From: Acidobacteriota bacterium
Lineage (GTDB): Bacteria > Acidobacteriota > UBA6911
Length of the DNA: 64,000 nt
Assembly (NCBI GenBank): GCA_012729555.1
Contig: JAAYCX010000012.1
Span: 86,519-150,518 of the forward strand
Direction: 5' to 3'
Below, one piece after another: positions 1,397 to 12,682 of the stretch. The position numbers and the translations under genes were made by a program. Positions within the stretch are counted from its first letter, which is position 1, and each line of letters starts with the position of its first letter. The notes beneath the pieces are model-generated. The model searched no databases. It worked only from the letters and a program-made list of their open reading frames with translations, and was not told where the DNA came from.

Positions 1397-1542
1397 GGAC
1401 CACGGACTTCCGCCGCCCCCGGACGCCCGTTTCCCCTTGTACGAAAAGGGGATATTGTGTTAAAAGAGGTCGGATCGAGGACACGTTCACCGGCGGCCCC
1501 CGCCGGGTGACCGATCGCCATATATCGGAAGGGAAGGAAAAC

Positions 1543-3294
1543 GTGAAGAATAAGCGAATTTTGACAGGCATCACCTTAACGATCGCGGCGGCCCTGGCAT
1601 TCGCCGGGCTGGCCCCGCTCCCCGCCCAGCAGGGCAAGGGCGCGTCGGGGCCGCTGATCACGGTCCTGAATCCGGCCATCGAGAGCAAGATGGTGGACCG
1701 CATCCCGCTCTCCCCGCGCCTGGACACGCTCGAAGGGAAAACGATTTACCTGGTGGATATCAGCTGGGGGGGGCCCGAAGCCGCCTACAGCGTGTTCGAG
1801 GAAATCCAGTCCTGGTTCGCGCAGAACATTCCCAGCGCGAAGATCGTCATCAAGAGAAAAGCGGGCATGTACACCCAGGATGACCCCGCCCTCTGGAAGG
1901 AAATCGCCAAGAACGGAAACGCCGCCCTGGTCGGCATATCGGGTTGAGATGGCTGTACGTCGGCCGTGAGCCAACATGCCAAAACCCTGGAACAGATGAA
2001 CATCCCCACCATCGGCGCCGCGGGCGCCAATGTCGTCAACTACGCGAGGGGGTACGATTTCGAGTATACCAACGGGATGCCGATCCGCTACGTGGGCTTC
2101 CCGTTCCCGGTCGCCGGCCAGCCCCGGTCGGTGGCCCACAGCTACGTGTTCGAGCGCAACGACGTCGTCACCGGGAAACCGATGATGCAGGCGATCGTCG
2201 ACGCCTGGACCAAGCCGTTGACCGAAAAGGAAAAGATCTCCGGGAAACCCCCGGAGGCGCGTCCGGAACCGCGGCTGCTCAAGGCGGACACCGAGGACAA
2301 CCTGCAGCAGCTCTTCAAGGACATGGACTGGACCGACTACAACCCGATCATCCTGCCGACCGAGGAGCGGGTGGCCGCCATGCTCAAGGGGACCAGCCGC
2401 AAGCCGGACGAGGTTGTGAAGGTCATCAACTGGCCCGGCGGAGCCCGGGCGATGACGGTGGAAAAAGTGGCCGTCTGCGCGGTGATGGCCGGGGCCAAAC
2501 CGGCGCACTTCCCCCTGATCCTCGCCGTTTCGACGGCGGTGCCGTTCGGCAACTCGACCAGTTCCATGGCCAACATGATCCTGGTCAACGGCCCGGTCCG
2601 GAACGAGCTCAAGATGAACTACGGCCTGAACGTCATGGGGCCCCACAGCGAGGTTAACAGCGTGGTGGGCCGCGCCTACACCCTGCTGTCGAAGACGGCG
2701 GGGAACCTCCATTCGGGCAAGACGACGTTCAGCGGGCTGGGAAGCAACATCCAGTACAACAACCTCTGCATCGCCGAGAACGAGGAAGCCCTGCCGGCCG
2801 GGTGGCAACCCACCCACGTGCTGAAGGGGTTCAAGCCCGCCGACAGCATCGTCACGGTGGGCACGGGCTGGAGCTACATCTCGAGCGTCGGGGAGGTCCA
2901 GTTGCACTACCCGCCGCAGCACCTGATCCGCGACTACATGCGGTCGCTGACCGGGATGGGGGCCACGGTCATCATGACCCCGGAGGTCGCCGGCATTCTC
3001 AAGGACGCCCAGGGGTTCTCGACCAAGCGCGACCTGAGCAAGTGGCTGGCGGAGAACGTGGAGAAGACCGTGGGTTCCTACTGGGGCAACGGCGTCATCT
3101 CCACGATGTATTCCTCCATGGCCATGCAGGGCCTGGAGCCCTTCGCCTCCCAGCGCAAGCAGGACCCGGAAACGATGATGAAGCCGCTGCAGGCGGGACA
3201 GGTGAACATCGTCGTGGCGGGACAGGGGCAGACCACCTGGTTCGTCACCGACTTCGGCGTCGGCCGCGGCACCAAGGTGGACGACTGGAAATAG
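1543..3294 (+). CDS. Secreted selenoprotein, UxxC motif, in-frame TGA (Sec) at 1945..1947; N-terminal ~130-aa domain fused to ~440-aa domain of unknown function (paralog of 7764..9497)
   Basis: GTG start at 1543 preceded by GGAAGGAAAA; signal peptide KNKRILTGITLTIAAALAFAGLAPLPAQQ; ORFs 1285..1947 and 1966..3294 are in the same frame separated only by TGA; translation across TGA gives GISG-U-DGCTSAVSQHAKTLE, conserved with paralog (GH-U-SQCAPAVVGHAITFE); conservation continues through the stretch between TGA and the ORF-finder start. Confidence 0.6.
1948..1975 (+). other. Candidate bacterial SECIS-like stem-loop immediately 3' of the in-frame UGA
   Basis: GGCU-GUACGUC-GGCC hairpin (1951..1965) starting 3 nt after UGA; needs RNA folding to confirm. 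Confidence 0.3.
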
Positions 3295-3320
3295 CCCGGC
3301 CGCCCGGGCGGGACAAACCA

Positions 3321-3361
3321 GCCGCGGATCCGGAATCCCCCGGGTCCGCGGCTTTTTTTTT
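3321..3361 (+). terminator. Rho-independent terminator after selenoprotein gene
   Basis: 13-bp GC-rich stem GCCGCGGATCCGG / CCGGGTCCGCGGC (one G-U pair), 6-nt loop, followed by T9 tract. Confidence 0.7.
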
Positions 3362-4656: not shown

Positions 4657-4694
4657 ACTCGCCGGGTCATCTTTTGCGCAAAAGGAGAAACATC

Positions 4695-5360
4695 ATGAGT
4701 TCGACCAAAGACGAGAAACCGGGCCGCAGGGCGTTCTTCCAGGAAATCACCGCGGGAACCGCGGGGTTTGCGATGGCGACGGCCCTGGCCCAGATGGCCG
4801 CGCCGGCCGCGGCGGCTCAGGACGCCAAGGCGCCCGCCCCCAAGAAGGCCGAATCGGCGTTTTTCAAAAACCCTCCGCCATGGCCCAAGGGGACCGAGGG
4901 GAGCAAGTACGACCACCTGTTCAGCACCAGGCTCCGGGAAAACACGATCGTGCCCGACATCGTTCCCGGCCCCCAGGCCTATTTCCGGGGAGACAGCGAC
5001 CTCCCGGGGGCGAAGATCAACATGGGGTGGCAGATCTTCACAAAGCCCTACCGGCTGGAGATGGAATCGCACCACCACGACACGGACGAATACCTCTTCT
5101 TCCTCGGTTCGACCCTGCCCGACCTGGCGGGTTCTTTCGACGCCGAGATCGAGTACTTCATGGGCAAGGAGTACGAACGGCACATCATCACCAAGGCGAC
5201 GGTGCTCTACATCCCGGCGGGACTGGAACACAATCCCTGCGACATCCGCAGGGTGGGCAAGCCGCTGCTCTTCAGCGCGCTTCAGCTCGCGCCTTACTTC
5301 AACGGCGTCTACCAGACGCAGGGCTACATGGAATTGCGGGGAATGAAGAAGATCGACTGA
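4695..5360 (+). CDS. Tat-signal cupin-domain protein
   Basis: RBS AAAGGAGAAA; twin-arginine motif GRRAFFQEI plus hydrophobic region; cupin metal motif HHHDTDEYLFFLG. Confidence 0.6.
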   Translation: MSSTKDEKPGRRAFFQEITAGTAGFAMATALAQMAAPAAAAQDAKAPAPKKAESAFFKNPPPWPKGTEGSKYDHLFSTRLRENTIVPDIVPGPQAYFRGDSDLPGAKINMGWQIFTKPYRLEMESHHHDTDEYLFFLGSTLPDLAGSFDAEIEYFMGKEYERHIITKATVLYIPAGLEHNPCDIRRVGKPLLFSALQLAPYFNGVYQTQGYMELRGMKKID

Positions 5361-5414: not shown

Positions 5415-5912
5415 TCAGGCCAGCCCGAGCGCATTCTTCACATCGTCGAGGAAGGCCTGCTCCGCCCCGCTCACCCTTTCGCCGCCGAATCCCAAAAATC
5501 CTCCTTCCCTTGCGGCGCCTGCGGCTTTTTCGGCCACCTCCAGGATCAGGTGCCGGTACGCTGCGGCCTCTTCCGGCGCCGCCTTGCCCCCGAGCAGTTC
5601 CATCGCCTCGCCGATGCGCGCGAGCACGGCGGATTTGAGGTTTTCCATCTGCTGCCGGCGGTCCCCCTCGCCCAGGAGCGTTTTCGGATCGGGTGTCCCC
5701 GGGGTGCTCCGGTCCTCCAGCATCGCGGCAAGAAGTTCATGCCCCGCCCCCTGCCTGAGCGACCCGATCCATCCCGTCGCCCCGGCCGCCGCCTCCTTCA
5801 CGGCGCCGATGATGCCGCTGGGATCGGCGGCCGACACCCCGCTCGAGACCAGGGCGGGCAGGATCCTGAGCAGGTTCCACTCCTCGGCCGTGAACATGGC
5901 TCTGGTGGTCAT
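5415..5912 (-). CDS. Hypothetical protein
   Basis: 165-aa ORF convergent with cupin gene; no recognisable catalytic motif. Confidence 0.4.
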   Translation of the reverse strand: MTTRAMFTAEEWNLLRILPALVSSGVSAADPSGIIGAVKEAAAGATGWIGSLRQGAGHELLAAMLEDRSTPGTPDPKTLLGEGDRRQQMENLKSAVLARIGEAMELLGGKAAPEEAAAYRHLILEVAEKAAGAAREGGFLGFGGERVSGAEQAFLDDVKNALGLA

Positions 5913-7763: not shown

Positions 7764-9497
7764 CTACCGCCAGTCGTCGATCTTGACGCTCCGGCCGTAG
7801 CGCAGCCCGCCGATGCTGTAATAATTATTGTTCGTCCCGCCGGTGACGATGATGGCGGTGTTGGAAAACCCGCCCATCATCGGCGGCATCTCCGCCTTGG
7901 GGGCCGGTTTCGCCTGGGCCCCGCCTTCCGGCTTCGCCTTGGGGGGCGCCATCTTTCCCATCGGGAACTGCGGCGCCGGCTCCAGGTACCTTTCAAACTT
8001 CTCCACAGTGTCGTAGCCCGCGTTCTTGATGAACTGGGCGATCGGGGGGCTCAGCACCGCGCAGGCTCCGAACAAAAACCCCTGCTGGTCGAAGATGTCC
8101 TTGATGATCTTGGGATAGTCCATCTCCTTTCCCCAGCTGGCGGCCTTCCAGTTGGCGGCCGAGAGCACGCCCCAGCCCTCGAAGAGGCTGACGATGTTCT
8201 CCCCCTTTTTGAACCCCTTGCGGACCGAGAGGGGGGCCCAGGGGGACTCCTCCTCGTTCTCGGCGATCACGATGTTGATCAGGTTCATCGGGTTGCCGAC
8301 GACGCCCATGTAGGTCGTCCCCACCTTGCCGCAGTTGCCGAGGTTGATCGACATCAGCGACCAGGCGCGCCCGATGGTGGTGTTGGCGTGGGCGTAGGGC
8401 CCCATGGCCCCCACCTTGGAGTTCAGGCCGATCTCGTCCCGGATGGCCCCGTTGATGACCAGGGCGCCCACGAAGGAGTTGTCCGACACCGAGATCGCCT
8501 CCTTCCCGGTGGAGGCCACCGCGAGGAGGAGGGGGAAATATTCCGGCTTGCACCCGGCCATGACCGCGTTCACCGCCACGTCCCGGACCGTGTAGGTCCA
8601 GTCCTTGAAATAGGTCCCGGTCTGGGTGGGCGACATCCTGCCCACGATCTCGTCCGGTTCGTGGCTCGTCCCCTTGAGCATGTCATCGACCCGCTCCGGG
8701 GTGGGCAGCACGATGGGGAGGAAATCGGTGTAGCGTTTTTCCAGAAACATCCTGTGCAGGTTTTCGGCCGTGTCGGTGAAGGTGCCCGGCCCCCGGCTCT
8801 GCTCGACCTTCCCCGTCCGCTTCTCTTCGGCCGTCAGCGGCTTGGTGAATTTTTCGACGATCTCCCGCATGACGGGCTGGCCCGTGATCGGGTTTTTTCC
8901 GTTGATGACGTCGCGCCGCAGTTCGTCGCGCGTCTTGGCCCAGACCGGGCCCCGGATCCACTGCGTCCGCAGCCCCGGCAACCCCTCCTGGAGCGCCTTG
9001 TCGACCTCCTGCTCGTAGAACTCGGAGAGGACGATCGGGACGGCGGGTTTGTTCAGCTTGGTTTCAAAAGTGATGGCGTGGCCGACAACCGCCGGCGCAC
9101 ACTGGCTTCAATGACCCAGGGCGATGATGATGCCGTCGGCCTTCTCCTTCATCTCCGCCCAGAGCTCCGGGTCCTCGGCGTCGAATCCTCCGCCCCCCTT
9201 GCGCTTGAACACGGTCGTGGTCCCGGGATGGTTCGCCTTGAACCAGTCCTGGATCTCGTAGAGCAGGTTGTCGCCGCCGATGAACCCGTCATCGACGAGG
9301 TAGATCGTCTTCCCCTCAAGCGTGTCGAGCCGGGGCGCCATCTGCTGGAGCGTGATCGGCGGGGGCGTTCCGAGCGGGTTCAGCACGGTGATCTTCTCTT
9401 CCGCGGCCGCCGCGGCCCGGCCGTCGAGGGCCGAATACGTGCAGGACAGGCCGAGGCACAGCAGCGCGATCAGGACTACGGGTTTGTGCCACTTCAT
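7764..9497 (-). CDS. Secreted selenoprotein paralog, in-frame TGA (Sec) at 9108..9110; same two-domain architecture as 1543..3294
   Basis: ATG 9497 with GGAGGAG RBS; signal peptide MKWHKPVVLIALLCLGLSC; ORFs 9108..9533 and 7764..8981 are in the same frame; read-through gives GIIIALGH-U-SQCAPAVVGHAITFETKLNKPAVPIV... conserved with paralog; both end KVDDWK/KIDDWR. Confidence 0.6.
9078..9100 (-). other. Candidate SECIS-like stem-loop 3' of UGA (minus strand)
   Basis: GUG-C-GCCG[GCGGUUGU]CGGC-CAC hairpin beginning 7 nt after UGA; G/U-rich apical loop. Confidence 0.3.
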
Positions 9498-9670: not shown

Positions 9671-10087
9671 TCACAGGAAGGGATTTTCGATCCGCAGGCC
9701 CGCGATGATCTGTTTGTTGTTCAGATCTTCCGAAAGAATCCTTGCAGCCCCGCTCCTGACGGCGGAAGCCACAATGAGGGCATCCCAGAACCCGATCCTG
9801 GCTTCGTCCTCGATCCGAAACGCCAGGTCGAGTTCAGCCGATGTGATGACGGCGCACCAGAGGGCATAGCTGGCAAGAATGAGACGCGCGGTCGGCTTCG
9901 GCAGGGGTTGCGCGATCTTGCGGGTCACATTCACGTAAAATTCCTGCAATACCTGGGTACTGAGAACTCCGCAGCGATCCGCCCACAGATCAAGAAGGAT
10001 GCCCTTTGCCCTTGCCTGTTTGGCCCCGGAATCCGCATCGTGCGCATAAATCAGCACATTCGTGTCAATAAAGGTCTTATCGCTCAT
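9671..10087 (-). CDS. vapC: Type II toxin VapC (PIN domain ribonuclease)
   Basis: FIDTNVLIYA N-terminal PIN acidic residue, conserved D/E residues, 138 aa, overlaps upstream antitoxin gene by 11 nt. Confidence 0.8.
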   Translation of the reverse strand: MSDKTFIDTNVLIYAHDADSGAKQARAKGILLDLWADRCGVLSTQVLQEFYVNVTRKIAQPLPKPTARLILASYALWCAVITSAELDLAFRIEDEARIGFWDALIVASAVRSGAARILSEDLNNKQIIAGLRIENPFL

Positions 10088-10331
10088 GCAACTCTTCCCG
10101 GCCGGCGGAAATCACTCCGCCCATGTGAAAAGGCTTGTCCAGAAGAGCGATGGCCTGCCGTTCGGCTTGAATGTAAGCCTCGTCCGCCCGAACCAAATCC
10201 TCGAGCTGCTGGGAGAGAAGGCCGCTGATCGACGTTTCCCGCCGGGCCGCAATGACCTTGGCTTTTCGAAGTAAATGCCGGCTCAGGCTGATGGTGATGT
10301 TCTGCTTGTCGCTGTTTCCGGATGGCGTCAT
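10077..10331 (-). CDS. vapB: Type II antitoxin, ribbon-helix-helix (VapB/CopG-like)
   Basis: 84 aa, RHH-like ITISLSRHLLRKAKVIAARRETSISGLLS, immediately upstream of and overlapping PIN toxin. Confidence 0.6.
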   Translation of the reverse strand: MTPSGNSDKQNITISLSRHLLRKAKVIAARRETSISGLLSQQLEDLVRADEAYIQAERQAIALLDKPFHMGGVISAGREELHER

Positions 10332-10651: not shown

Positions 10652-12448
10652 TCAATAAAGGTAGACGGCCCCACTGTAGGAGGCCAGGTTGTTGTCTGCG
10701 TCGCCACCGATACCGGTTGCATTGCTTTCTTCATCAGGAGCGCCGGCCGCCAGGGTCAATCCGTCCCAGGAAAGATCGACGGCGTGGCCGAAGACGTCCA
10801 GGGGTTCCGTGTTTGAAGCCTTGATATAACTGTAAACAAAAAAGTTCCTGTCCGGACGATAGAACAGGTAGACGGCTCCGCTGTCTTCGGCGGAATCGTC
10901 CGAGCTGTCTCCGCCGATTCCTATATCCCAGCTGTCCTCGAACGGTGCTCCCACCGCCAGGGAAACGCCGTCGCCGGAAAGCGAAACCGAACTTCCGAAT
11001 GCATCCCCGGTTCCCGCGCTCGAGGCTTTGAGGTAGTCCTTCTGTGTCCAGAGACCGCTGGAATATTCAAAGACATAGACGGCGCCGCTATCGACAACGG
11101 CCTCGTTGCCCGCGCCCGGGCCGTTCCCGTCTTCGCCGGGCGCTCCGACCGCGAGAGTGTTTCCGTCCGCGGAAAGAGAAACCGAGAAACCGAAATAATC
11201 CATCGATTCGGCGTTGGAAGCCTTGATGAATGCCGCAGCGTTCCCCCAGGTGTTTCCGGTCCGGGTAAATACGAAAACAGCGCCGCTGTCCGGCAGGGCG
11301 TTGTCCTGTCCAAAGCTGCTTTCGCTGTCGTTGAAATCGTTCCCTACGGCCAGAACGCCGCCATCCTCCGAGAGAGCCAGGGAGGAACCGAACTGGTCGT
11401 TGATGTCGACATCCAAGGGGGGCTTGAGGTACGCCTGCTGTTGCCAGTCAAGGCCGTCCCGGAAAAACAGATAGACGGCTCCGCTGTCCGGGACGGAGTT
11501 GTCGATCGGGTTGCCCGCGCTGTCTTCTCTCATTGCGGAGACGGCGAGGGTGTTTCCGTCTCCCGAAAGCGCGAGCCTTTCACCGAACCGATCCCCCTCG
11601 TCCTGAAGGAAAGCCTTTATGAGGGAACCAGGGGCCCATGAGTTCCCGGCGCGCGTGAAGATATAGACCGCGCCGCTGTCCGGCATGGAATTGTCATCCT
11701 CCCCACCGGTGGAGCCGCTGTCTTCATACATCGCTCCAACCGCAAGGGTGTCTCCATAATACGAAAGGGCAACCTGTCCCCCGAATTCATCGAAGGATTC
11801 CGCGTTCCAGGCCTTGAGGTATGCCTCCTGCTCCCAGCCGGATATCGTATAGGCGAAAATATAGACCGCTCCGCTTGCCGGTGCGGAGTTGTCCATCTGG
11901 CTGCCGGAATAGCCCGGATCGCCCGGATGCCATGCGCCGGTGGCGGCGCTGCTTTCATAGGGGGCCCCGACAGCCAGCGTCCGTCCGTCCCCGGAAAGCG
12001 CCACCGAGACGCCAAAACCATCGTATTCCCCGGTATTCGATGCCTTGAAATATCCCACGGCATCGGCCAGGGACCCGGTCACGAAAACCTCGCCCATACT
12101 CTGGTAAAACCCGTTACGCAAGGCTTCCAGAATATAGGAGGCGTTGATTCGGTCGGGCAGCGGAACATACAGGTCGTAGAACGTGGTGTCTGCATCGATC
12201 GTGGCTATGACGCTATAGCCCGATTGGCCATCAGGGTCTTCCAGCAGCCTGTACGCGGTTTCATTGGAAACATCCGTCCATGTAAAATGAAAAATATTCA
12301 CCTGCCGGAATTCGAGTTGGAGCGTGGGAGACGGAGGATTGCCTCCTGTCCGCCCGTCACCAGCGCAGGAACAAAGGCCCAGGATGAGGACCAGGTGAAG
12401 GATGGACCATAGGAAATTCTGAATTCTAGGCGAATGTGACAGCTTCAT
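10652..12448 (-). CDS. FG-GAP repeat (integrin-alpha-like beta-propeller) lipoprotein
   Basis: ~7 repeats of FG..-GDG-T/LAVGAP...DSGAVY; signal/lipobox LILGLCSC; RBS AAGGAG; upstream extension of the ORF rejected. Confidence 0.7.
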   Translation of the reverse strand: MKLSHSPRIQNFLWSILHLVLILGLCSCAGDGRTGGNPPSPTLQLEFRQVNIFHFTWTDVSNETAYRLLEDPDGQSGYSVIATIDADTTFYDLYVPLPDRINASYILEALRNGFYQSMGEVFVTGSLADAVGYFKASNTGEYDGFGVSVALSGDGRTLAVGAPYESSAATGAWHPGDPGYSGSQMDNSAPASGAVYIFAYTISGWEQEAYLKAWNAESFDEFGGQVALSYYGDTLAVGAMYEDSGSTGGEDDNSMPDSGAVYIFTRAGNSWAPGSLIKAFLQDEGDRFGERLALSGDGNTLAVSAMREDSAGNPIDNSVPDSGAVYLFFRDGLDWQQQAYLKPPLDVDINDQFGSSLALSEDGGVLAVGNDFNDSESSFGQDNALPDSGAVFVFTRTGNTWGNAAAFIKASNAESMDYFGFSVSLSADGNTLAVGAPGEDGNGPGAGNEAVVDSGAVYVFEYSSGLWTQKDYLKASSAGTGDAFGSSVSLSGDGVSLAVGAPFEDSWDIGIGGDSSDDSAEDSGAVYLFYRPDRNFFVYSYIKASNTEPLDVFGHAVDLSWDGLTLAAGAPDEESNATGIGGDADNNLASYSGAVYLY

Positions 12449-12682
12449 GAGATACATATCTCCTTGGTTTTCGGAATCACAGCTCTTCCCTTTATTGATT
12501 GGATGATGATCGTTGAATTTCTTATCAGAAAGAATTCCCGGTTCTTCGGAGGACGCCGTTTTGCCGGTCCTTTTCCATTCTGTGCCATTCAATCCGGCCG
12601 GCCCGGGGGGACTTTTCGAACGCGCTGTGACATAATGGCGTTTGGTGCCTTACGCTATGAACAGAGACGGAACCGGCAATCG

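What the first reader, a model, noticed from the sequence alone, without database searches (positions are those of the whole stretch)
1966..3294. Uncharacterised ~440-aa domain downstream of the Sec codon
I cannot assign the large C-terminal domains to any family I know: MNIPTIGAAGANVVNY...KVDDWK in copy 1 and LRTQWIRGPVWAKTRDEL...KIDDWR in copy 2. They have no obvious cofactor motif. They are Gly-rich in the middle (VGAMGPYAHANTT / MGPHSEVNSVVGRAYTLLSKTAGN). Together with the UxxC N-domain they form a paralogous family present twice within 8 kb in inverted orientation. The two copies bracket cell-envelope genes (MFS, LysM/BON, FemAB-like).
Basis: inference. Interest (0 to 1): 0.6.

Follow-up and report, generated by a model that had tools for sequence, protein, structure and literature searches.

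The report
Partner domain of UGSC selenoproteins
The unassigned stretch is the C-terminal part of an exported selenocysteine protein, and it contains a widespread domain of unknown function and no known fold that always travels with the "UGSC" selenoprotein module, a link that makes this long-unexplained family experimentally approachable.

Summary
Window 1966-3294 is the post-Sec part of one gene (1543-3294, +) that reads through an in-frame TGA at 1945-1947. A paralogue lies at 9497-7764 (-), with its TGA at 9108-9110.

Each protein has a signal peptide, a UGSC-family redox domain (Pfam PF24696, UxxC) and a linker. These are followed by a conserved C-terminal domain of about 335 aa.

The domain is not an orphan. 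It has thousands of relatives in more than 10 phyla. It is either fused to UGSC or encoded as a separate gene next to a canonical short U-G-S-C selenoprotein, on either side of it.

In 20 of 80 genomes a thioredoxin-reductase paralogue lies nearby, and in about 17 it is adjacent. Short UGSC proteins weakly resemble the Sec region of glycine/proline reductase selenoprotein B.

My best reading is that this domain is the substrate-handling partner of a selenol-based reductase. Its substrate is unknown.

A UGSC fusion to an "Unknown_1" domain, which I could not confirm is this one, was noted in 2008. The bracketed envelope genes are incidental.

The parts
1543..3294 (+). Copy 1: the complete selenoprotein gene (583 aa plus stop). 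It reads through TGA 1945-1947.
   Evidence: Translation. A natural Cys form of the same protein, P0043 (585 aa, GISGCDSCTS), is 77% identical. An AAGGA-type ribosome-binding site lies before GTG 1543 (read from the sequence).
1543..1632 (+). N-terminal signal peptide of copy 1 (about 30 aa, VKNKRILTGITLTIAAALAFAGLAPLPAQQ). The boundary is approximate.
   Evidence: Read directly from the sequence. Orthologues in L001 and L012 have the same kind of hydrophobic leader. No signal-peptide predictor was run.
1663..2130 (+). UGSC-family redox domain of copy 1 (residues 41-196), spanning the Sec codon.
   Evidence: Pfam PF24696, E 1.9e-12, 48.1 bits against a threshold of 25. NCBIfam NF041046 gives 33 bits, below its 125-bit cut-off.
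1945..1947 (+). Sec codon (TGA) of copy 1, in the motif U-D-G-C.
   Evidence: It aligns with Cys in P0043. 66 of 80 related genome loci have TGA at the same position in a UxxC motif.
1951..1972 (+). SECIS-like hairpin directly after the UGA of copy 1 (4+4 bp, loop UCGGC).
   Evidence: Centroid fold. The same hairpin is in the L001 orthologue, with a C-G to U-G change. The folding energy is not better than that of shuffles (z -0.16), so the support is comparative only.
2131..2286 (+). Linker between the UGSC domain and the C-terminal domain. It contains the conserved LT-x-PLT-x-x-E segment.
   Evidence: Alignments A1 and A4. Modelled as helices followed by coil.
2287..3291 (+). The unassigned C-terminal domain of copy 1 (residues 249-583). 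The conserved core is residues ~249-450. Near-invariant polar residues are D265, T273, T284, T305, S338, N359, N372, R377, E412 and W421. The protein ends in D-D-W-K.
   Evidence: No family or PDB hit. AlphaFold model pLDDT 90.3, pTM 0.89. Conservation measured over 59 diverse domains. Standalone proteins begin ~20 aa before the WTD motif.
3320..3361 (+). Intrinsic-terminator-like hairpin (14 bp, 11 G-C pairs) plus a T8 run after copy 1.
   Evidence: Terminator scan.
7764..9497 (-). Copy 2: the complete paralogous selenoprotein gene (577 aa plus stop). It reads through TGA 9108-9110 and starts with the leader MKWHKPVVLIALLCLGLSCTYSALDG.
   Evidence: Translation. The 405-aa post-Sec piece is 100% identical to P0121, labelled 'Acidobacteria bacterium'. 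The start is placed by comparison with L086.
8910..9386 (-). UGSC-family redox domain of copy 2 (residues 38-196).
   Evidence: Pfam PF24696, E 3.2e-20, 73.4 bits.
9108..9110 (-). Sec codon (TGA) of copy 2, in the motif U-S-Q-C.
   Evidence: The same motif and position occur in L086.
9076..9102 (-). SECIS-like hairpin after the UGA of copy 2 (apical loop GGUU).
   Evidence: Fold of -17.7 kcal/mol. The homologous hairpin in L001 has loop AGUU. The related USTC subfamily has a GGUC-loop hairpin with compensatory changes in 3 of 4 pairs.
7767..8774 (-). The unassigned C-terminal domain of copy 2 (residues 242-577). It ends in I-D-D-W-R.
   Evidence: It aligns with copy 1 over its whole length. 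5330 relatives were found.

Best explanation
SHOWN. Window 1966-3294 is not a gene of its own. It is the part of a 583-aa exported selenoprotein (1543-3294) that follows the Sec codon, and a 33%-identical paralogue lies 4.5 kb away on the other strand.

Each protein has the same layout: a signal peptide, a UGSC redox domain, a linker, and a conserved domain of about 335 aa. In the AlphaFold model the UGSC domain has a flavodoxin/Rossmann-like fold, with the U-x-x-C motif at the start of a helix.

The 335-aa domain has no relative in Pfam, NCBIfam or the PDB, by sequence or by fold. It is the constant companion of the UGSC module. It is fused behind UGSC, as here, or encoded as a separate ~350-aa protein immediately before or after a canonical ~175-aa U-G-S-C selenoprotein gene.

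INFERRED (mechanism). The two modules form one enzyme. The UGSC module supplies a selenol/thiol redox pair, in the manner of the Sec-bearing part of glycine/proline reductase selenoprotein B. The partner domain supplies the substrate pocket, lined by the near-invariant residues D265, T273, T284, N372, R377, E412 and W421.

The selenol would attack or reduce the bound substrate and form a Se-S bond with the neighbouring Cys, which is then re-reduced. In cytoplasmic relatives the reductant would be a dedicated thioredoxin-reductase paralogue encoded next door. For the exported Acidobacterial forms in this window the electron donor is unknown. Some relatives sit next to periplasmic PQQ dehydrogenases.

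The two clustered paralogues may work as a pair, because natural proteins with two tandem copies of the domain exist. The substrate is unknown.
For: Anatomy:
- In-frame TGA and read-through.
- The UGSC Pfam match spans the TGA.
- A Cys-form homologue, P0043, exists.
- 66 of 80 genome loci have TGA in a UxxC motif and about 10 have CxxC.
- A conserved SECIS-like hairpin shows compensatory changes.

The domain is real, autonomous and unassigned:
- There are 4732 cluster representatives at 50% identity with E<=1e-3.
- Standalone and tandem architectures exist.
- No Pfam or NCBIfam hit was found in 50 diverse members, and no PDB sequence or profile hit.

Coupling to UGSC:
- 29 of 50 diverse relatives carry PF24696.
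- In 80 metagenome loci of the standalone branch, 63 have a separate UGSC gene within 700 nt on the same strand (40 upstream, 23 downstream). 51 of these have a literal U-G-S-C motif. 15 of the other 17 loci sit at contig edges.
- Six such short genes were checked and are canonical UGSC: five score 131.5-163.2 bits against the 125-bit cut-off of NF041046 and one scores 124.7, just under it.

Redox partner:
- A ~310-aa protein with a CA[ST]C motif occurs in 20 of 80 genome loci, and about 17 are directly adjacent on the same strand.
- It matches TIGR01292 (thioredoxin reductase) over its full length at 272-312 bits, below the 343-bit equivalog cut-off, so it is a paralogue.

Link to selenoprotein B:
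- 5 of 6 short UGSC proteins give weak hits to GrdB, PrdB or TIGR01918 (E 1.6e-5 to 0.04), aligned around the Sec-bearing C-terminal region in each.

Catalytic-looking conservation:
- Ten polar residues are at least 85% conserved over 59 domains that are about 30% identical.
Against: - No activity, substrate or cofactor is known, and nothing experimental exists for any member (reviews).
- The hits to GrdB and PrdB are all far below their cut-offs, and the window's own UGSC domains do not give them.
- The partner domain shows no similarity to GrdE or PrdA, the partners of selenoprotein B.
- Some relatives have lost both redox residues (P0245, P0247, P0256, L016) while keeping the C-domain motifs. 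The domain can therefore do something without Sec or Cys chemistry.
- The window's proteins are exported, and the window holds no thioredoxin-reductase paralogue, ABC transporter or PQQ dehydrogenase (tblastn). The electron path proposed for cytoplasmic relatives cannot apply directly here.
- I could not read model coordinates, so I do not know whether the Sec faces the conserved pocket.
Confidence: 0.5

Rival explanations
1. The C-terminal domain is not catalytic. It would be a binding, scaffolding or dimerisation module (for a ligand, a protein client or the cell envelope). The UGSC domain alone would do generic thiol/selenol chemistry, for example as a disulfide oxidoreductase or peroxide/oxidant scavenger in the periplasm.
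For: - The domain has no invariant Cys or His and no cofactor motif.
- Both window proteins are exported, and 17 of 80 relatives have Tat-type leaders. That is where stand-alone thiol oxidoreductases are common.
- Tandem C-C proteins and clustered paralogues suggest a role in oligomerisation.
- Members without any redox Cys or Sec keep the domain.
Against: - Ten polar residues (D, T, S, N, R, E, W) are conserved at 85% or more among domains that share ~30% identity. This pattern is typical of an active site or a specific ligand pocket rather than a scaffold.
- The strict one-to-one gene linkage with UGSC in either order argues for a dedicated two-part machine.
- The neighbours in relatives are metabolic genes: thioredoxin-reductase paralogue, short-chain dehydrogenase, luciferase-like oxidoreductase, alpha/beta hydrolase, PQQ dehydrogenase, Opp/Dpp-type ABC transporter.
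Confidence: 0.27
2. The domain is a very distant member of a known enzyme superfamily, namely the ones behind the weak fold hits: the N-terminal domain of class I fumarate hydratase, or the cyclic amide hydrolases of the 'Toblerone' fold (cyanuric acid hydrolase, barbiturase). It would then act as a hydratase or hydrolase.
Against: - The three Fe-S cluster Cys of class I fumarases have no counterpart, since the domain has no invariant Cys.
- No threefold internal repeat like that of the Toblerone fold is detectable (hhalign self-comparison).
- No sequence or profile hit to either family was found.
Confidence: 0.06
3. The TGA is an ordinary stop codon. In that case 1285/1543-1947 and 1966-3294 are two separate genes (a ~134-aa protein and a 442-aa protein), which is how public annotation calls them.
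For: Gene callers in every public source split the gene, into pieces of ~131-134 aa and ~430 aa. A GTG lies 18 nt after the TGA.
Against: - The Pfam UGSC domain runs straight across the TGA.
- The TGA aligns with Cys in uninterrupted homologues (P0043; CSTC forms).
- The position is TGA within UxxC in 66 of 80 species from many phyla.
- A hairpin with compensatory changes follows it.
- No ribosome-binding site precedes GTG 1966 (read from the sequence).
Confidence: 0.02

Closest known systems
UGSC family (seleno)protein (Pfam PF24696, NCBIfam NF041046), the 'UGSC-containing protein' of Zhang & Gladyshev
   Same: The N-terminal domains of both window proteins match PF24696 above threshold. Sec sits at the family's position in a UxxC motif. 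NCBI already names some fused relatives 'UGSC family (seleno)protein' (P0402, P0475, P0492).
   Different: Canonical members are ~175-aa single-domain proteins with the motif U-G-S-C-S-[ST]-C, and score 125-163 bits on NF041046. The window proteins score 33-39 bits (cut-off 125), have U-D-G-C and U-S-Q-C without the third Cys, carry signal peptides, and are fused to the ~335-aa partner domain.
'UGSC/Unknown_1 fusion' reported from the Global Ocean Sampling metagenome (PMC2398784, 2008, Fig. S1A)
   Same: [quoted passage not shown] This is the architecture and distribution found here.
Protein B of glycine/sarcosine/betaine reductase and D-proline reductase (selenoprotein GrdB/PrdB plus the substrate-binding pyruvoyl partner GrdE/PrdA, fed by the thioredoxin system)
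   Same: Both are two-part systems: a Sec-bearing UxxC module plus a separate or fused substrate module. A thioredoxin-reductase-type gene is nearby. Short UGSC proteins give weak but reproducible hits to GrdB, PrdB and TIGR01918, aligned around the Sec-bearing C-terminal region in each. From my own knowledge, grd operons encode trxB and trxA, and GrdB carries U-x-x-C-x-x-C, as the short UGSC proteins do.
   Different: All hits are far below the cut-offs (13-24 bits against 65-602). There is no Pfam GRDB hit. The partner domain has no similarity to GrdE or PrdA. No GrdA-like or GrdC/D-like genes were seen. The window proteins are exported, whereas those reductases are cytoplasmic.
Class I fumarate hydratase N-terminal domain and cyclic amide hydrolases (cyanuric acid hydrolase, barbiturase)
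   Same: They are the recurrent top structural hits for the C-terminal domain model.

Membership tests
UGSC family (Pfam PF24696) | Score above the Pfam gathering threshold (25 bits) over most of the model | tested here: met
   Copy 1: 48.1 bits, model positions 2-153 of 172. Copy 2: 73.4 bits, positions 2-158 of 172.
UGSC family (NCBIfam NF041046, equivalog) | Score at or above the curated cut-off of 125 bits | tested here: not met
   33.4 and 38.6 bits for the whole proteins, and 36.6 and 42.0 bits for the isolated domains. Short UGSC genes next to standalone partner genes score 124.7-163.2 bits.
UGSC family | Sec (or Cys) followed by x-x-Cys at the conserved position; the name-giving motif is U-G-S-C | tested here: met
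   UxxC is present (U-D-G-C and U-S-Q-C). The literal G-S is absent. In the fused branch the motifs are USTC (40), UDGC (6), USSC (6), UGGC (4) and others.
Bacterial selenoprotein (Sec decoding) | In-frame UGA aligned with Cys in homologues, followed by a SECIS hairpin | tested here: met
   Cys homologue P0043. TGA in 66 of 80 loci. Hairpins follow both UGAs. In the USTC subfamily, 3 of 4 hairpin pairs show compensatory changes and the loop is GGUC. The folding energies of the window hairpins are not better than those of shuffles.
Bacterial selenoprotein (Sec decoding) | The genome encodes selA, selB, selD and tRNA-Sec | not testable with these tools
   No tRNA gene is present in the 64-kb window. 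The sel genes were not searched for, and the rest of the genome is not available.
Thioredoxin-fold oxidoreductases (the fold suggested for UGSC in 2008) | Thioredoxin fold with CxxC/UxxC at the N-terminus of helix 1 | tested here: not met
Glycine/sarcosine/betaine/D-proline reductase selenoprotein B (TIGR01917, TIGR01918, TIGR04483, Pfam GRDB) | Score above the family cut-off | tested here: not met
   The window proteins give no hit at E<=1. Short UGSC relatives give 13-24 bits against cut-offs of 65-602. This is a lead for distant homology, not membership.
Class I fumarate hydratase / Toblerone-fold cyclic amide hydrolases | Significant fold match plus the catalytic residues (three Fe-S Cys, or three Ser-Lys dyads in a threefold repeat) | tested here: not met
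Any curated protein family for the C-terminal domain (Pfam-A 2025, NCBIfam 20.0) | Any hit at E<=0.01 in the window proteins or in diverse relatives | tested here: not met
   Searches gave none.

The most novel reading that the evidence does not exclude
UGSC selenoproteins have been among the most abundant selenoprotein families in aquatic metagenomes since 2005-2008 and still have no function. They would be one half of a previously unrecognised two-component selenoenzyme. Its other half would be this new-fold domain, which carries the substrate pocket. The pair would catalyse a selenol-dependent reductive reaction on an as yet unknown small molecule. Cytoplasmic versions would be recharged by a dedicated thioredoxin-reductase paralogue. 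Acidobacteria would have exported, multi-paralogue versions wired to periplasmic redox enzymes.
Probability: 0.35. Interest if true: 0.8.

Novelty: new member of a known kind. Interest (0 to 1): 0.58.

Why it matters
UGSC proteins are listed in every census of prokaryotic selenoproteins as abundant and of unknown function (PMC2398784; 2026 review PMC13188914).

The region flagged here contains the conserved partner of that module. The partner is fused to UGSC or adjacent to it, in either gene order, across more than ten phyla, and thioredoxin-reductase paralogues lie nearby. This turns an isolated redox motif into a defined two-part system that can be expressed, reconstituted with its reductase and screened for substrates.

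The partner domain has no curated family model and no structural relative in the PDB despite a confident prediction. It is therefore a good target for structure determination and for a new Pfam entry.

Public annotation also truncates virtually all of these genes at the Sec codon.

Tried and rejected
- **Sequence searches of the C-domain.** Pfam and NCBIfam on the window proteins and on 50 diverse relatives found nothing beyond UGSC. PDB searches with the single sequence and with a 27-sequence profile found nothing.
- **Internal duplication of the domain.** hhalign of thirds and a self-alignment found none.
- **Cys- or His-based metal or redox site in the C-domain.** No invariant Cys or His exists.
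- **Self-processing (pyruvoyl-type) site at the conserved 'G-T-S' after the WTD...LPT motif.** I considered this by analogy with GrdE and PrdA. It is not supported, because the motif is replaced (SAS, ASG, ATG) in the tandem proteins. It was not tested further.
- **The cell-envelope gene bracket as a functional clue.** Rejected, because it is not conserved.
- **Relatives' neighbour genes in the window.** tblastn of the fifteen commonest neighbour-gene clusters found in relatives (they include the thioredoxin-reductase paralogue, ABC ATPase, short-chain dehydrogenase, PQQ dehydrogenase and AMP-binding enzyme) found none in the window.
- **Technical dead ends.** Alignment A3 was too diverse for the search for related loci. 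The N-terminal fragments were misaligned in A5 and were dropped. Model coordinates are not exposed, so the distance from the Sec to the pocket could not be measured. Figure S1A of the 2008 paper is an image.
- **Solved structures of UGSC, GrdB or PrdB by sequence.** None found.
Full report
**1. What is in the sequence**

The ORF at 1966-3294 (+, 442 aa) exists. It is in frame with the ORF that ends at TGA 1945-1947. Reading through that TGA from GTG 1543 gives a 583-aa protein. An AAGGA-type ribosome-binding site precedes GTG 1543.

The protein starts with a hydrophobic leader (VKNKRILTGITLTIAAALAFAGLAPLPAQQ) and carries the motif G-U-D-G-C. A second gene on the minus strand (ATG 9497 to stop 7764) has the same layout, with TGA at 9108-9110 in H-U-S-Q-C.

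The two post-Sec parts are 33% identical over their whole length (E 8e-68). tblastn finds only these two copies in the window. MFS, LysM and FemAB genes lie between them, and HflX lies upstream of copy 1.

A 14-bp terminator hairpin with a T8 run follows copy 1 (3320-3361).

**2. The TGA is a Sec codon**

- The Pfam UGSC model (PF24696) matches residues 41-196 of copy 1 and 38-196 of copy 2. The match runs straight across the TGA and is above threshold (48 and 73 bits against 25).
- A natural uninterrupted homologue (P0043, 585 aa, 77% identical) has Cys at this position (GISGCDSCTS).
- In 80 related loci from different GTDB species, 66 have TGA at this position within UxxC and about 10 have CxxC.
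- Small hairpins follow both window UGAs and their orthologues.
- In the largest subfamily (USTC) the hairpin has a GGUC loop 16 nt after the UGA, and 3 of 4 pairs show compensatory changes.

Public gene calls nevertheless split almost all of these genes at the TGA.

**3. Boundaries of the unassigned part**

The ~60 residues after the Sec still belong to the UGSC domain. A ~50-residue linker with a conserved LT-x-PLT segment follows.

Standalone homologues start about 20 residues before the W-T-D...L-P-T motif. The unassigned domain is therefore residues 249-583 of copy 1 (nt 2287-3291) and 242-577 of copy 2 (nt 8774-7767). That is about 335 aa rather than 440.

Tandem-domain proteins repeat only its first ~200 residues, so this is the conserved core. 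Most members end exactly at D-x-W-[RK] (50 of 63).

**4. It matches nothing characterised**

- Pfam and NCBIfam gave nothing at E<=1 for the window proteins, and nothing for 50 diverse relatives or for standalone members.
- PDB sequences gave nothing, with a single sequence or with a 27-sequence profile.
- The recurrent weak hits are class I fumarate hydratase and cyanuric acid hydrolase/barbiturase. They share neither catalytic residues nor a repeat structure with the domain.
- The AlphaFold-database libraries were not available. 'No known fold' therefore applies to solved structures only.

**5. It is a large, old family with a catalytic-looking signature**

Searches returned 4255, 5330 and 7015 relatives among 90%-identity clusters. 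At 50% identity there are 4732 cluster representatives.

These loci come from Acidobacteriota, Actinomycetota (including cultured Pseudonocardia acaciae), Chloroflexota, Thermodesulfobacteriota, Alpha-, Beta- and Gammaproteobacteria, Verrucomicrobiota, Latescibacterota, Binatia and Bacillota.

Over 59 domains that share about 30% identity, the following residues are at least 85% conserved: D265, T273, T284, T305, S338, N359, N372, R377, E412 and W421, together with several Gly, Pro and Ala. No Cys or His is invariant.

**6. The domain is the constant partner of UGSC**

Most relatives are UGSC fusions (29 of 50 diverse members). I scanned metagenome contigs with the two shortest standalone proteins (P0372, P0378).

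- In 63 of 80 loci a UGSC-domain gene lies within 700 nt on the same strand. It is upstream in 40 and downstream in 23, and always a separate gene.
- 51 of these carry the literal motif U-G-S-C encoded with TGA.
- 15 of the remaining 17 loci sit at contig edges. The last two have a UGSC gene ~1.1 kb upstream.
- Six of these short genes were checked and are canonical UGSC proteins. Five score 131.5-163.2 bits against the 125-bit cut-off of NF041046, and one scores 124.7, just under it. Three of them were also run against Pfam and score 178-201 bits on PF24696.

Fusion in one lineage and adjacent genes in either order in others is the classical sign that two modules work together. The window genes are the fused, Sec-containing, exported version of this system.

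This is very probably the 'UGSC/Unknown_1 fusion' mentioned in 2008. I could not verify that, because the figure is an image.

**7. Clues to how it works**

*(b) Weak link to selenoprotein B.* Five of six short UGSC proteins give weak hits (E 1.6e-5 to 0.04) to glycine reductase selenoprotein B, the broader selenoprotein B subfamily, or PrdB. The hits align around the Sec-bearing C-terminal region in each. All are far below the cut-offs, and the window's own domains do not give them. This is a lead for distant homology and not membership.

*(c) A dedicated reductase nearby.* Clustering the neighbours of 80 genome loci shows that the commonest neighbour is a ~310-aa flavoprotein with a CA[ST]C motif. 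It occurs in 20 loci, and in about 17 it is directly adjacent on the same strand. It matches the thioredoxin reductase model over its full length at 272-312 bits, just under the 343-bit equivalog cut-off. It is therefore a paralogue and not the housekeeping enzyme.

*(d) Other neighbours are metabolic.* They include an Opp/Dpp-type ABC ATPase (13 loci), a short-chain dehydrogenase (9), an AMP-binding enzyme (6), a peptide-type solute-binding protein (5) and an FAD oxidoreductase (5). A luciferase-like oxidoreductase plus an alpha/beta hydrolase occur in two unrelated contexts.

*(e) Exported forms in Acidobacteriota.* Here the proteins carry Sec- or Tat-type leaders (17 of 80 are Tat-like). 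They occur in clusters of two or three paralogues and sit next to periplasmic PQQ dehydrogenases in 6 loci.

Taken together, the best-supported model is a two-module selenol-dependent oxidoreductase in which the unassigned domain binds or activates the substrate. It would work like protein B of glycine or proline reductase with its thioredoxin supply, without being a member of that family.

The anatomy, the Sec decoding, the UGSC linkage and the reductase neighbourhood are shown. The catalytic role of the domain, the direction of electron flow and the pairing of the two paralogues are inferred. The substrate is unknown.

**8. What argues for caution**

- Some relatives have lost both redox residues but keep the domain (P0245, P0247, P0256, L016).
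- The window proteins are exported, and none of the redox or transport neighbours seen elsewhere is in the window.
- The only conserved context of the window pair is the pairing itself and the nearby hflX.
- I could not inspect coordinates to see whether the Sec faces the conserved surface.
- A non-catalytic binding or scaffold role remains a serious rival.

**9. Novelty and verdict**

The family is a known unknown. The UGSC module is named in Pfam and NCBIfam and in the selenoproteome literature. Some fused relatives are already labelled 'UGSC family (seleno)protein', and a UGSC fusion to an unknown domain was noted in 2008. The window genes are therefore new members of a known kind.

This analysis adds five things:
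- the exact domain limits;
- the absence of any sequence or solved-fold relative despite a confident model;
- the near-obligatory UGSC-partner linkage in both gene orders;
- the thioredoxin-reductase paralogue;
- the exported multi-paralogue form.

Interest is moderate to fairly high, because the result makes a long-standing unexplained selenoprotein family experimentally tractable.

Noticed in passing
window 4691-5357 (+): A 222-aa ORF with a twin-arginine leader (GRRAFFQEITAGTAGFAMATALA) has no Pfam or NCBIfam hit. A 219-234-aa gene with no Pfam hit on record sits at the corresponding position, next to the MFS gene, between the two family copies in L008-L011. I did not compare the sequences.
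   Followed up: partly
window 5418-5912 (-): A 165-aa ORF between the Tat-leader protein and the LysM gene has no Pfam or NCBIfam hit.
   Followed up: partly
window 1576-2922 (-): A 448-aa ORF lies antisense to copy 1. A similar antisense ORF (L061 1732-3468) clustered across 8 loci in the neighbour analysis. I interpret these as typical high-GC shadow ORFs and not genes.
   Followed up: partly
window 9674-10331 (-): A toxin-antitoxin-like pair lies immediately beyond copy 2: a PIN-domain protein (138 aa) and an 84-aa protein with weak CcdA/DUF6364 hits.
   Followed up: no
window 10655-12592 (-): A 646-aa protein with six FG-GAP repeats (PF14312, E 3e-48).
   Followed up: no
L004 6562-7080 and L005 4266-4730: An AhpC/TSA peroxiredoxin is called as two short pieces (63+70 aa and 45+104 aa) a few genes upstream of the UGSC fusion. 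It looks like another selenoprotein gene split at a Sec codon.
   Followed up: no
L032, L055, L069, L079, L080 (Acidobacteriota): Exported (Tat-leader) family members sit directly next to one or two PQQ-dependent dehydrogenase genes. L032 and L080 have two or three family paralogues flanking them.
   Followed up: partly
P0476: One relative is named 'sigma-E processing peptidase SpoIIGA' in its NCBI record. Nothing in the sequence family supports that name, so it is probably an annotation error.
   Followed up: no
L001 9551-15265: A 6.2-Mb Acidobacterial contig carries three Sec-split paralogues of the family side by side. An ECF sigma factor and a FecR-like gene flank them, and hflX is nearby.
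   Followed up: partly
window 1432-1452 (+): A weak terminator-like hairpin lies between hflX and copy 1. This suggests that copy 1 is transcribed on its own.
   Followed up: no
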